Assembly (NCBI RefSeq): GCF_017348835.2
Contig: NZ_CP071375.1
DNA from: Escherichia coli
Lineage (GTDB): Bacteria; Pseudomonadota; Gammaproteobacteria; Enterobacterales; Enterobacteriaceae
DNA length: 64,000 nt
Reading direction: 5' to 3' (one strand)
In this document: one piece after another, positions 36,001 to 39,000 of the stretch
Position numbering within the stretch: the first letter of the stretch is position 1
Layout: each line of letters begins with the position of its first letter
Position numbers: made by a program

Positions 36001-39000
36001 TTCCAGCGTTGCCGCCAGCCCCGGATCTTTTGCGCGGGCGGTTTCCAGCACATGGCGGTAATGCTCCGGCGTGATGGCCCGCTTCGTACCGTTACGGGAT
36101 GCGCCAGACAGGCCCAGCGAGCGGTTATTCAGTCGCTCACTCTGCGCCAGCCTGTCACGCCCGGCCTGTTTCAGAATGCAGCGCACCGCCGCCATCTCAT
36201 TTTGCAGGGAACGCTTCGTGATACCCTGCGCCAGTCGTTCACGAACATATCCCTCAATATACCGCGCCTTAAGCTGCTCCACCCGGCGGATCTGCACATT
36301 CTGTGCCAGAACCAGACGCTCACAAAACCGCTGCACCAGCTTAATACGGTCGTGAACGGTCTTATGGCTGCCGCCCGCCTGCTGTGCCAGTCGCTTCATT
36401 TCCTGCTCCAGAATCCCCATACATTCCCCCTTTCATGATTGCCGCAAACTCATCCCCAAAAACTCAACACTGATACAGCGTTCCCCGGCGCACAGGCCGA
36501 TAGCCCCTGAGTTTTGTCGGGGCTGCGAACGATACCTGAGCGCCGGGGCGGCAGCCGTTGAGGTGTGGTGGGGCTTCGGTTGTGCTCTCAGAGCAGCCGC
36601 CCGCTTGCGCGGGTCATCCCCCGGATCGTCCAGATCCGCCTCGGTATCGGTTCATGTTCTCCTTATGGGTAAATGGCCTGAAAAGGCGGTGTCAGAATCC
36701 AGCCATGAGCTGGCGCAGTTGAGTTTTCTGGTGCAGGTCGAAAGGGCTTGCGTGCGTCACTTTCCCGCTTTGCGCGGTTAAAGTGACGCACGGATCTGGT
36801 GCAGCATCTGAGATTTATCGTCTGGTGCAGTTTTACGGTCACGCGGCAGCAAAGCCTGACGGCAATGCAGGCCGCAGCCCGTAAGGTAAAAGGCGCTGAG
36901 GGTGTCAGCAGATGCAGGTTAGCCGGGAGAATTCCGGCGCGGTGCAGATTCAGACCAGCAGGCTGGCGAAGTAAAAGGATGTATCGTATTAAAACTCTGG
37001 CCTCCGTCGCGATGTTCTGCGACCCGGTGTTTGCAGAGGTCTGCACCGGTAAACGGATCGACCGTCCTGATAACAGGCGCTTCTTTCAGGTTGTGAAGCG
37101 TTGGGCGCTGTCTACGACAGCATAGAGCAAGGGGGAGACTACGCCTGTGCCGCTGGCGCGGAAAGGAGAAACTGTTTTTACCTGCAAAAGGATTTTTTAA
37201 TCACTTGTTGTTATAAAAAATGAGGGCGCTGTATGTGACAGCGCCCTCGTTCAGGTTACATAAAAAATATCAGCTCAGAATAGCTTCCAGTCGAGCCAGC
37301 ACCTCATTCACGACAGCATCGGGTATACGTTCCAGCCGCTTACCGCTCCGAGCTCCCATATCAATGGTTCTGGGCTGGTCGCAGCGAATAACGCCCGTTG
37401 TTTTTGTTCCCGCCCCGTCCAGTGAAACGGTAAAACCGGCTTCGCGGGCAAAGTTTCCGCCGCTGGTGACAGGGACAACAACAGGCAACCGGGTGAACGT
37501 GTTAAACGATGCCTTCGATACGATGAGTACCGGACGTTTTCCACTTTGTTCATGGCCAGTGGTGGGATCCAGTGAAACGAGCCAGATTTCTCCTCTGTCC
37601 ATCTACAGGATCTCCTTGCCCACCGCAGGCGCATCAATCCATTCCCGACCCTCTTCGCTTATTTCAGCGTGCGGATCGCACTGCGCCAACAGTTCTTCGA
37701 GCGAATAGCGGGGACGTTTTTGAGGTTCAATAATCAGGCAGCCATCATCAATGGTCATGCCCACTTCGCTGTCCGTCGACAGCCCTAGCGTTTTCAGCAC
37801 GGCGGGGGGAACCGCCAGCATGACGGATCCGCCAACCTTTTTCAGGCGAGTGGTATACATAGAGCACCTCCAGATATTATATTTTAATATAACATCTACG
37901 GCAGACGATGCACAACTATTCATCAGGTTCATTGTGGTTTCCTTAGTGTAATAAAGCGTGAAGAAAGCCTTAATCCATCGGAAGACAGATCCGGCAGTTT
38001 TCAAAGGCGACATTGCCGGTAAAAGGGCAACCGTCCTGATACATCAGGCGCTTCTTTCAGGTCATGAAGCATTTCGTACAGGCGGGAGCTTAGTGCGTAA
38101 CAAAGAAGGCCGATAATAGGAAACTGCTTTTGCAGTTCAAAGGATTATGACGGTTCGGATAAACAAAATGCGGCGCAGCTTCCGTATCCGGGCTGCGCCG
38201 CAGGAACATCAGCGGTAGCGCGAAGGCCAGATTTGCTCAGGCTTGAAGCCTAACGCTTCGGCAATTAACCTTTCGCCTTTGGGCCAGCGGCGGGTAAGCG
38301 CATTAGCCAGCGTGGAGGACGCCAGACCTGCCTGACGCGAAAGCGCTGACAGCGAAGTGCCTCGTTTTTTCAGCCCGGCGATAATGTCGGCAGGATGCCA
38401 GTCCTGCAGCATCATGCAGCCACCTCGTCGATAAACTTCACGCCGTCGGCGGTGCGGAGCCAGCGCGGGGCTTTCATTTCGGCGGCAAAATACCAGACCA
38501 GTTCACATAATAAGCCTGTTATCGTCTGCTCCACTTTTGGCTGCATCCCCTGCCCGATAAGAAGTTGCGCCAGCGTCAGTGAGTAATCACAAAGTAATTC
38601 TGCGTCGGGGACAAATCGGGGCATATCGGCAGGTAGAGCATCAACGGTCAGGCTGTCAGTCAGATGAGACGGGATGGGGTCGTTCAGCGTGGGTTGCAGC
38701 AAAGTGAGACAGGCGGCAAGTCGCCCGCAAAGCGCCAGCCGCAGCACCGGATCTTCGCTTTCGATCAGGGTTTCGGCGACGTTTTCGCAGTGGTCTGCCA
38801 GTACGGTAAAATCTGTGGCAGCACTGAAGGGAACAGCAAGTAACGGGTGTGTCTGAGTGGGGATCGTAGCCATAAAGGCAGCCTCCAGTATGTGGTTTGA
38901 AAACCACCACCAGAGGTTCCAATCTCATGGGTGGTGGACTGAACGAGGTTGGAACTACCGGCCATACTGGAACCGGCGCACCTTACGGTGCCCCCGCCCA

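What the first reader, a model, noticed from the sequence alone, without database searches (positions are those of the whole stretch)
36440..37200. GC-rich non-coding stretch with iteron-like TCTGGTGCAG repeats and a 13-bp perfect inverted repeat
About 0.8 kb between pemK and the recombinase has no convincing ORF (track ORFs here are short, overlapping and in a GC-rich background). It contains three direct copies of TCTGGTGCAG (36728, 36795, 36821) around a perfect hairpin CGTGCGTCACTTT ...16 nt... AAAGTGACGCACG (36751..36792). That arrangement is characteristic of a plasmid replication or transfer origin, a recombinase target, or a structured RNA.
Basis: seen in the sequence. Interest (0 to 1): 0.45.

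Follow-up and report, generated by a model that had tools for sequence, protein, structure and literature searches.

The report
Structured leader of a short recombinase gene

Summary
There are three exact TCTGGTGCAG copies (36727, 36795, 36821), two degenerate ones, and a perfect 13-bp inverted repeat (36751-36792). The 849 bp between pemK and the recombinase gene are non-coding.

The window is an E. coli chromosomal island at tRNA-Asn, not a plasmid. On the minus strand the region reads: a weak STAXI match (RF01728), a conserved block, the 9-mers and hairpin, a CTGAC motif, a strong EFASI match (RF02957), then a short tyrosine recombinase. Rfam already describes this arrangement; its function is unknown.

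New here:
- The hairpin (core GCGTCACTT/AAGTGACGC) lies 291-467 nt upstream of the start codon in 43 of 47 recombinase loci and shows compensatory changes.
- CTGAC sits about 57 nt after it in most modules of every clade.
- EFASI's "unpaired" 3' tail forms a covarying helix, with G·U pairs, with a segment near the ribosome-binding site.
- The 9-mers occur only in the tRNA-island clade, and a second, inverted array lies beyond the recombinase gene.

Best reading (about 0.5): a cis-acting structured mRNA leader. A DNA recombinase-binding site is the main rival. The replication or transfer origin reading is rejected.

The parts
35536..36420 (-). Short tyrosine recombinase gene (294 aa). It carries the H-x-x-R and H...Y motifs.
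   Evidence: ORF. Pfam PF12834 (8e-36) and PF12835 (5e-63). Faint XerC/XerD similarity. No solved relative by sequence.
36483..36496 (-). 3' arm of the 'P-ext' helix (CCUGUGCGCCGGGG), 62 nt upstream of the start codon.
   Evidence: Inverted repeat I3. RNAalifold picks this helix, with 6 of 7 pairs showing changes on both sides. 93.8% of cells are paired and 0 of 500 shuffles reach the covariation score.
36535..36548 (-). 5' arm of P-ext (CCCCGGCGCUCAGG). It lies inside the stretch that the Rfam EFASI model leaves unpaired, and the helix crosses EFASI's closing stem.
   Evidence: There are 11 G·U cells on the sense strand against 2 A·C cells.
36526..36655 (-). EFASI RNA motif (RF02957), full length.
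   Evidence: 118.7 bits against a gathering score of 51.2, E=1e-24. The same element sits at the same place in relatives.
36656..36664 (-). Purine box AAGGAGAAC immediately 5' of EFASI. AAGGAG-like sequence is kept across the aligned clades.
   Evidence: Alignments.
36691..36697 (-). TTCTGAC motif. CTGA starts 56-59 nt after the hairpin in most modules of all clades.
   Evidence: about 85 of 96 modules by my count. Conserved columns.
36710..36718 (-). R4, 9-mer CTGCGCCAG.
   Evidence: Sequence. Position conserved.
36727..36736 (-).
   Evidence: family D5.
36751..36792 (-). Hairpin H1: a 13-bp perfect stem, a 4-bp inner stem (CCGC/GCGG) and a GCAAA loop. Core GCGTCACTT/AAGTGACGC.
   Evidence: I4. 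Present in 43 of 47 loci. Covariation: 91% of cells paired, 6 of 13 pairs with changes on both sides, 0 of 500 shuffles. Apex more self-complementary than shuffles, mean z -1.48. Also upstream of a 39.6%-identical recombinase on a betaproteobacterial plasmid.
36795..36804 (-). R2, CTGCACCAGA.
   Evidence: family D5.
36821..36830 (-). R1, CTGCACCAGA.
   Evidence: family D5.
36835..36882 (-). Block A (ACGGGCUGCGGCCUGCAUUGCCGUCAGGCUUUGCUGCCGCGUGACCGU). With H1 it is the best-conserved part of the leader in the island clade. The homology shared by many relatives begins here.
   Evidence: 85-100% identity in loci that are 60-64% identical over the whole leader.
36929..36937 (-). R0, degenerate copy CTGCACCGC. 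It is one end point of the deletion seen in Salmonella loci L001 and L026.
   Evidence: Sequence; alignments.
36983..37122 (-). Degenerate STAXI element (RF01728). Two pseudoknot units match.
   Evidence: 37.3 bits against a gathering score of 40.5, E=6e-6. The Salmonella orthologue scores 41.3. A second STAXI-like unit lies at about 38016-38146.
37222..37248 (-). Intrinsic terminator of pemIK. It marks the upstream limit of the unit.
   Evidence: 11-bp stem with 8 G-C pairs, followed by ATTTTTTATA.
32576..32832 (+). Second array of the same 9-mer (6-7 copies, 27-35 bp apart), inverted relative to R0-R4. It lies beyond the 3' end of the recombinase gene, separated from it by an IS66 insertion.
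   Evidence: The equivalent array occurs in relatives without the IS.

Best explanation
The interval 36421-37200 is the long, non-coding, structured upstream leader of the short tyrosine recombinase gene (minus strand).

Shown:
- It is one instance of the catalogued STAXI -> EFASI -> integrase arrangement.
- It contains a conserved stem-loop H1, a CTGAC motif at a fixed distance 3' of H1, EFASI, and a helix tying EFASI's 3' tail to a segment close to the ribosome-binding site.

Inferred:
- The stretch is transcribed with the recombinase gene and works in cis. EFASI plus the new helix would fold next to the ribosome-binding site and set how much recombinase is made.
- H1 would be a recognition stem-loop for a protein, most simply the recombinase itself (autoregulation) or a processing nuclease.
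- The CTGCRCCAG 9-mers would be a clade-specific add-on rather than the core of the mechanism.
For: - Identity: EFASI at 118.7 bits and STAXI at 37.3 bits, in the canonical order and on the recombinase's strand. The same order recurs in Serratia, Erwinia, Photorhabdus, Pantoea, Brenneria and metagenome loci. Rfam's own text, quoted in PMC12370729, describes exactly this arrangement.
- RNA on the sense strand: the P-ext helix has 6 of 7 pairs with changes on both sides, 93.8% of cells paired, and 11 G·U against 2 A·C cells. From the sequences printed, its 3' arm lies roughly 15-75 nt from the start codon. EFASI stems also carry G·U pairs.
- EFASI and STAXI RNAs were detected by RT-qPCR in E. 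coli vesicles (PMC12370729).
- H1 is near-universal and folds: 43 of 47 loci, covariation, apical complementarity.
- Orientation relative to the gene is constant in about 100 modules.
- The stretch is non-coding.
- The 9-mers are absent from every ICE-type clade that keeps H1 and EFASI.
Against: - No sigma-70 promoter is predicted anywhere in the leader, and a good terminator lies just upstream. The transcription start is therefore unknown, and H1 could sit upstream of it.
- H1 is strictly Watson-Crick, shows no strand asymmetry, and has 7 core base pairs invariant across all 61 distinct hairpins. That looks more like sequence readout of DNA than a typical RNA helix.
- The fixed spacing of about 57 nt between H1 and CTGAC also looks like DNA phasing.
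- Rfam states that EFASI probably acts in trans.
- No experiment addresses function.
Confidence: 0.5

Rival explanations
1. DNA-level recombinase site. H1, as a palindrome, cruciform or folded single strand, together with the CTGAC half-site-like motif would be the binding or crossover site of the adjacent recombinase. In the island clade the CTGCRCCAG arrays would be accessory sites. This would resemble resolution sites that sit upstream of their own tyrosine recombinase genes.
For: - H1 co-occurs with this recombinase family from Gamma- to Betaproteobacteria, including an 8.2-kb plasmid that also carries rep, par and toxin-antitoxin modules.
- The duplex core is invariant while the flanking pairs covary.
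- There is no G·U bias.
- Spacing to CTGAC is constant at about 57 nt. The downstream motif reads CTGAC(G/A)C, resembling the GTGACGC arm.
- The 9-mers are sense upstream and antisense downstream of the gene in every island-clade locus, with spacing of roughly three helical turns in the downstream array.
- A deletion in Salmonella ends exactly at two 9-mers.
Against: - The arms are 11-22 nt apart and the distance varies, whereas known tyrosine-recombinase cores have 6-8 bp spacers.
- The apex carries its own covarying stems, which a duplex site would not need.
- No inversion or excision variant appeared among about 30 island-clade loci.
- The arrays are absent from most clades.
- The 9-mer differs from the hairpin arm.
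Confidence: 0.27
2. Single-stranded-DNA element. STAXI, H1 and EFASI would fold in the transferred or displaced strand of an ICE or mobilised island. They would act as a single-strand origin, priming signal or single-strand promoter, so that the recombinase is made early in a recipient.
For: - STAXI's discoverers raised a single-stranded DNA role (PMC2864571).
- STAXI is abundant in MPF-G ICEs (PMC5587801).
- ICE-type loci carry the module next to TraG-like and topoisomerase genes.
- H1 is purely Watson-Crick yet clearly folds.
- Some apical loops contain GCGAAGC. From memory, not tested here, this is a very stable DNA mini-hairpin.
Against: - The module is kept in small non-conjugative islands and in a non-mobilizable 8-kb plasmid.
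- P-ext abuts the ribosome-binding site, which fits mRNA.
- No -35/-10 pair is found inside a stem.
Confidence: 0.08
3. Trans-acting small RNAs. EFASI, and possibly an H1-containing fragment flanked by the 9-mers, would be released as small RNAs. The CUGCRCCAG copies would pair with the complementary CUGGYGCAG copies in the recombinase coding region and 3' flank.
For: - Rfam's stated view.
- In the island clade, 1-7 complementary copies lie in the coding sequence and up to 7 downstream, never in the other orientation. They are absent in clades that lack the leader copies.
- A weak terminator-like site follows EFASI.
Against: - The coding-sequence copies are all in-frame Leu-Ala/Val-Gln and are not more conserved at synonymous sites than other codons (p=0.29).
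- The repeats are missing from most clades.
- P-ext links EFASI physically to the mRNA.
Confidence: 0.1
4. Plasmid-type iteron replication origin or oriT.
For: Direct repeats beside an inverted repeat resemble such sites superficially.
Against: - The context is chromosomal, between tRNA-Asn and the yeeJ-like Ig-domain gene.
- No Rep or relaxase gene is nearby.
- Only 142 related Salmonella plasmids carry a piece of the region, beside pemK.
- The repeats are 9-10 nt, irregularly spaced and clade-specific.
Confidence: 0.02

Closest known systems
EFASI RNA motif (Rfam RF02957; Weinberg et al. 2017)
   Same: Full-length match far above the gathering score. It lies upstream of an integrase and a few hundred bases downstream of STAXI, exactly as the family description says.
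   Different: The family model stops short. The segment it leaves unpaired (CCCCGGCGC) forms a covarying helix with sequence near the recombinase ribosome-binding site. That points to a cis role rather than the proposed trans role. The module also occurs outside Enterobacteriaceae.
STAXI motif (Rfam RF01728; Weinberg et al. 2010)
   Same: Same strand and relative position. The pseudoknot unit CUGAAAGAAGCGCC...GG is recognisable. A C4 RNA is nearby, as the original paper noted.
   Different: The window copy is degenerate, at 37.3 bits against 40.5. A second STAXI-like unit precedes pemIK, so the units bracket a toxin-antitoxin cassette.
Resolution sites upstream of tyrosine recombinase genes: Tn4430 IRS/TnpI and pSDL2 crs/Rsd (recalled from memory, not tested here)
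   Same: A small tyrosine recombinase with an inverted repeat plus direct repeats immediately upstream of its own gene.
   Different: In those sites the inverted repeats flank a short crossover spacer, and for IRS the direct repeats are the same motif as the inverted ones. Here the arms are 11-22 nt apart, the apex folds on itself, and the 9-mer differs from the arm.
Folded single-strand substrates of tyrosine recombinases: integron attC/IntI and CTX phage attP/XerCD (from memory)
   Same: A hairpin-forming site associated with a XerC/D-like recombinase. Toxin-antitoxin cassettes are bracketed by repeated structured elements.
   Different: H1 has an invariant perfect stem rather than a structure-defined imperfect one. 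No cassette-array dynamics were shown, and the recombinase is co-oriented at the end of the unit.
IS110 bridge RNA (from memory)
   Same: A structured non-coding RNA encoded directly 5' of a recombinase gene.
   Different: The recombinase class is different. No variable loop matches any nearby sequence.

Membership tests
EFASI (RF02957) | Covariance-model score at or above the gathering score of 51.2 bits | tested here: met
   118.7 bits, model positions 1-133 of 133.
EFASI (RF02957) | Location upstream of an integrase gene and downstream of STAXI | tested here: met
   105 nt upstream of the PF12834/PF12835 gene and 327 nt downstream of the STAXI match.
STAXI (RF01728) | Score at or above the gathering score of 40.5 bits, with two to three tandem pseudoknot units | tested here: inconclusive
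   37.3 bits, E=6e-6; units 1-2 align and unit 3 is lost. The Salmonella orthologue scores 41.3.
Iteron-type plasmid replication origin | Adjacent initiator (Rep) gene and a plasmid replicon context | tested here: not met
   Chromosomal island. The neighbours are pemIK, a Ner-like regulator and integrases.
Iteron-type plasmid replication origin | Regularly spaced iterons of about 17-22 bp that are conserved wherever the element occurs | tested here: not met
   9-10-nt repeats at spacings of 118, 26, 68 and 18 nt. They are absent in most clades that keep the hairpin.
oriT | Relaxase or accessory genes adjacent, and a nick site beside the inverted repeat | tested here: not met
   No relaxase gene appears in the 18.8-kb annotated neighbourhood. 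No conserved sequence follows immediately 3' of H1 across clades. Nicking itself cannot be tested with these tools.
Tyrosine-recombinase core site (lox, dif, res-like) | Two inverted 11-13-bp arms around a 6-8-bp spacer | tested here: not met
   The arms are 13 bp, but the spacer is 16 nt here and 11-22 nt in relatives.
Tyrosine-recombinase core site (lox, dif, res-like) | Binding and cleavage by the cognate recombinase | not testable with these tools
   Needs gel-shift, footprinting and recombination assays.
Intrinsic terminator | G+C-rich stem followed by a U/T tract | tested here: not met
   No T tract follows H1 on either strand.
Protein-coding gene | A conserved open frame with codon periodicity in relatives | tested here: not met
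   no Pfam hits.

The most novel reading that the evidence does not exclude
The recombinase and its roughly 0.5-kb structured leader (H1, CTGAC, EFASI, P-ext) form one ribonucleoprotein or self-contained recombination unit. In one version the RNA is a cofactor that gates or programmes a tyrosine recombinase. In the other, the gene with its inward-facing 9-mer arrays is a minimal mobile 'integrase cassette'. In that version the STAXI units would act as cassette boundaries for cargo such as pemIK or higBA.
Probability: 0.07. Interest if true: 0.85.

Novelty: already known. Interest (0 to 1): 0.4.

Why it matters
This module is common and its function is unknown. It is present in 585 of 5,426 complete E. 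coli genomes. It also occurs in many Enterobacterales islands and ICEs, in soil metagenomes, and on a betaproteobacterial plasmid.

The anatomy worked out here gives concrete handles for testing whether a mobile-element recombinase is controlled by, or acts on, its own structured leader. Those handles are an invariant hairpin, a motif at fixed spacing, and a pseudoknot-like link to the ribosome-binding site.

It also shows that the Rfam EFASI model is incomplete and that a cis role is likelier than the trans role currently stated.

Tried and rejected
- Protein coding: rejected.
- Plasmid origin or oriT: rejected on context and on the distribution of the repeats.
- Intrinsic terminator at H1: no T tract.
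- Sigma-70 promoter in the leader: none found. CTGACA has no acceptable -10 element in any clade I inspected by eye. A sigma-E reading of TCTGA also failed, because no GGAACTT lies at the right distance (by eye).
- Strand of H1: G·U against A·C counts and sense against antisense folding energies give no signal.
- Guide-like segments: the R1-R2 spacer has no second match in the window. Hairpin loops show no excess match within their own loci.
- Nucleotide-level selection on the coding-sequence copies of the 9-mer: not significant.
- attR search with the tRNA-Asn 3' end: this found only the other tRNA-Asn genes.
- The 10-bp inverted repeat flanking EFASI (I12): not conserved in relatives.
- Literature: no functional study of EFASI, STAXI or PF12835 recombinases turned up. 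The supplement of the EFASI paper is not held in the library.
- Solved structures: no sequence relative.
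Full report
**Observation.** One search lists TCTGGTGCAG at 36727, 36795 and 36821; the first coordinate was off by one. It also lists a perfect 13-bp inverted repeat at 36751-36763 and 36780-36792, with 16 nt between the arms. Two further copies of the repeat lie on the same strand: CTGGCGCAG at 36710-36718 and an 8-of-9 copy at 36929-36937. The repeat is over-represented. With up to one mismatch there are 17 matches in the window against 3.84 expected. Around the hairpin there are 5 copies against at most 3 in shuffles. The 849 bp between pemK (37270-37602) and the recombinase gene (35536-36420) do not encode a protein. 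The ORFs there have no Pfam hit. In 26 relatives, 34 of 35 indel events break the reading frame, substitutions show no codon periodicity, and stops occur in all frames. The small '+'-strand hypothetical proteins annotated in some RefSeq relatives are in different frames with different starts.

**Context.** The window is an E. coli chromosome, 100% identical to strain PE164. The island sits at tRNA-Asn. Everything relevant reads on the minus strand, in this order:
- C4, isrK and c4-a1b1 RNAs (39132-38927);
- a 153-aa ORF;
- a Ner-like HTH_35 regulator;
- a STAXI-like unit;
- pemI and pemK, followed by a strong terminator (37248-37222);
- the flagged interval;
- a 294-aa tyrosine recombinase (PF12834 + PF12835).

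Only Salmonella plasmids carry part of the region. These are 142 records, of which 141 are related plasmids at the same 76.6% identity, with the match beside pemK; an annotated example lacks EFASI and the recombinase gene. The recombinase family itself is rare on plasmids, at 55 of 72,556 records.

**What is catalogued.** Rfam finds EFASI (RF02957) at 36526-36655 on the minus strand, at 118.7 bits against a gathering score of 51.2. It finds STAXI (RF01728) at 36983-37122 on the minus strand, at 37.3 bits against 40.5. The family text quoted in PMC12370729 says EFASI stands for 'Enterobacteriaceae, Frequently Around STAXI and Integrases', and that it lies several hundred bases downstream of STAXI and upstream of integrase genes, with unknown function. 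That is this locus. STAXI's authors left open whether it acts as RNA or as single-stranded DNA (PMC2864571). It is abundant in MPF-G ICEs (PMC5587801). No Rfam family covers them, even at E up to 10.

**Relatives.** A scan of one genome per species with the recombinase protein gave 50 loci at 48-94% identity. A metagenome scan with the hairpin core gave 120 more loci. About half of those encode a recombinase homologue a few hundred nt from the hairpin. Rfam scans of subsets show a constant order on the recombinase's strand: STAXI, hairpin, EFASI, recombinase. In ICE- or plasmid-type loci a second STAXI often follows the gene.

**The hairpin (H1).** The core GCGTCACTT(T/G)...(A/C)AAGTGACGC lies 291-467 nt upstream of the start codon in 43 of 47 loci with enough upstream DNA. 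Three of the other four keep a mutated or truncated remnant. On 61 distinct trimmed hairpins, 91% of cells pair and 6 of 13 pairs show changes on both sides (80 cells). None of 500 shuffles reaches these values, and slid controls collapse to 30-50% paired. Seven core pairs never vary. This is partly by design for the metagenome loci, but it also holds for all of the loci found through the recombinase. The one exception, L004 (reached by DNA similarity to the leader), keeps pairing through a compensatory change. The apex has clade-specific inner stems (CCGC/GCGG, CTCAC/GTGAG, GTCGC/GCGAC and others) and is more self-complementary than shuffled loops, with mean z of -1.48 and 36% of loops below -2. 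So the element folds within one strand. The distance between the arms varies from 11 to 22 nt, which argues against a simple duplex operator. Which strand or molecule folds cannot be told from H1 itself, because there is no G·U against A·C bias and no difference in folding energy between strands. A recognisable H1 (GCGCGTCACTGCT...AGCAGTGACGCGC) also precedes a 39.6%-identical recombinase on an 8.2-kb Caballeronia plasmid that carries rep, a ParA-like ATPase and higBA.

**Other conserved parts.**
1. CTGA starts 56-59 nt after H1 in about 85 of 96 modules by my count, in all clades, although the sequence in between cannot be aligned. In the window the motif is TTCTGAC at 36697-36691.
2. An AAGGAG box abuts the 5' edge of EFASI.
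3. Block A (36835-36882) is 85-100% identical in island-clade loci that are 60-64% identical over the whole leader, and it marks where the homology shared by many relatives begins.
4. The EFASI segment CCCCGGCGC, which the Rfam model leaves unpaired, pairs with GCGCCGGGG downstream (window 36548-36535 with 36496-36483; I3). Given only this part of the leader, RNAalifold returns that helix as the sole consensus structure. Six of its 7 pairs show changes on both sides, 93.8% of cells pair, and 0 of 500 shuffles reach the covariation score. It carries 11 G·U cells against 2 A·C cells, which favours folding of the sense strand. From the sequences, its 3' arm lies roughly 15-75 nt from the start codon. 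The helix crosses EFASI's closing stem, so it is a pseudoknot-type extension.

**The 9-mers.** CTGCRCCAG is conserved in position in the island clade, which includes E. coli, Salmonella, Citrobacter, Klebsiella and Brenneria. It is absent from every ICE-type clade. Serratia-type loci instead repeat TTCAACGTT, and others show nothing. In the island clade the motif is strictly oriented:
- 1-5 sense copies upstream of the gene, with at most one antisense copy (in 5 of about 45 loci);
- 0-7 antisense copies in the coding sequence (at least one in all but one locus), all in-frame Leu-Ala/Val-Gln, with one sense copy in a single locus;
- up to 7 antisense copies in the 900 nt downstream, again almost never in sense.

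In the window the downstream array is at 32576-32832, with 6-7 copies 27-35 bp apart. It lies beyond an IS66 insertion, between the two convergent integrase genes. The coding-sequence copies are not more conserved at synonymous sites than other Leu, Ala and Gln codons. They may therefore reflect the protein sequence and codon usage. A 107-nt deletion in Salmonella loci ends at R0 and R1. I have no settled explanation for the arrays.

**Mechanism.** The evidence that the 3' half of the interval is RNA continuous with the recombinase mRNA is fairly good. It rests on the P-ext covariation with wobble pairs, the position next to the ribosome-binding site, the constant orientation, and the reported detection of EFASI and STAXI RNA. 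I therefore commit to a cis-acting structured leader that controls recombinase synthesis, at about 0.5. Within it, H1 would be a recognition stem-loop. What weakens this reading is that no promoter is predicted, that H1's core is invariant and purely Watson-Crick, and that its distance to CTGAC is fixed. These features fit a DNA site bound by the recombinase, the main rival at about 0.27. A single-stranded-DNA role (about 0.08) and a trans-acting small-RNA role (about 0.1) remain possible. A replication or transfer origin is rejected.

**Comparison and novelty.** As a system this is already catalogued (EFASI and STAXI next to an integrase), and the window copy is an ordinary member. Four details appear in no source I could consult: H1 as a near-universal third element, the CTGAC motif at fixed spacing, the P-ext helix, and the inverted 9-mer arrays. 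Searches of the literature library found no functional work on any part of the module. Interest is moderate. The module is widespread and unexplained, but the finding itself is a known motif pair.

Noticed in passing
window 37270-38146; L007 2822-3494; L016 2847-3507: The pemIK cassette, with its own promoter-like site (38140-38113) and terminator, sits between two STAXI-like units. In Citrobacter and Affinibrenneria loci a higBA-type pair (identified from its sequence only, not scanned) occupies the equivalent slot. L001, L009 and L026 have no cassette. The slot after STAXI looks like a cargo hotspot.
   Followed up: partly
window 32576-32832: An array of 6-7 CTGCRCCAG copies (plus 2 inverted) lies downstream of the P4-like integrase terminator. 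It is inverted relative to the copies in the flagged interval, and it is conserved in relatives.
   Followed up: partly
window 32881-32920 and 35388-35429; L009 4920-5650: AT-rich palindromic units of about 50 bp (CGTACAAAAAATTT...TTTCCTATTAAT) are repeated between the two convergent integrase genes. In the window they lie on both sides of the IS66 insertion.
   Followed up: no
window 38927-39132 (-): C4 antisense RNA (83 bits), isrK (73 bits) and the c4-a1b1 target element form a P1/P4-type immunity RNA set at the head of the same minus-strand unit. The same set occurs in L001, L005, L016 and several metagenome loci.
   Followed up: no
window 35536-36420 (-): The recombinase of the island clade contains 5-6 Leu-Ala/Val-Gln tripeptides, each encoded as CTGGYGCAG. 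ICE-clade orthologues have LAR, LAK or LAD at those places and none of the 9-mers.
   Followed up: partly
window 36617-36667 (-): At the 5' edge of EFASI, AAGGAG is followed by ATG (TTG or GTG in Brenneria and Lonsdalea), which opens a 13-codon ORF. The start-codon identity is kept in the island clade, but the downstream frame is not, and other clades have no start codon.
   Followed up: partly
L001 6400-6500; L026: Salmonella loci lack about 107 nt, including block A. The deletion end points are the 9-mers R0 and R1.
   Followed up: partly
L002 (Salmonella Infantis plasmid p-F219) 6001-6600: 141 related Salmonella plasmids match at one identity (76.6%), beside pemK. In the annotated example (L002) the match covers STAXI, block A and H1 and stops at the EFASI boundary, with no recombinase gene annotated nearby.
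   Followed up: no
window 39244-40848 (-) and the adjacent gene of about 946 aa: An LA2681-family HEPN protein and a large hypothetical protein lie next to the unit. They may be a defence cargo of the island.
   Followed up: no
window 44096-44212 (+): ALIL pseudoknot (120 bits), the frameshift signal of an IS3-family element.
   Followed up: no
L095, L107, L124, L106, L143 (metagenome): These loci have H1 and the start of an EFASI-like sequence but no recombinase hit by tblastn. An opposite-strand HTH protein (MAKVSISEAARL...) follows instead.
   Followed up: no
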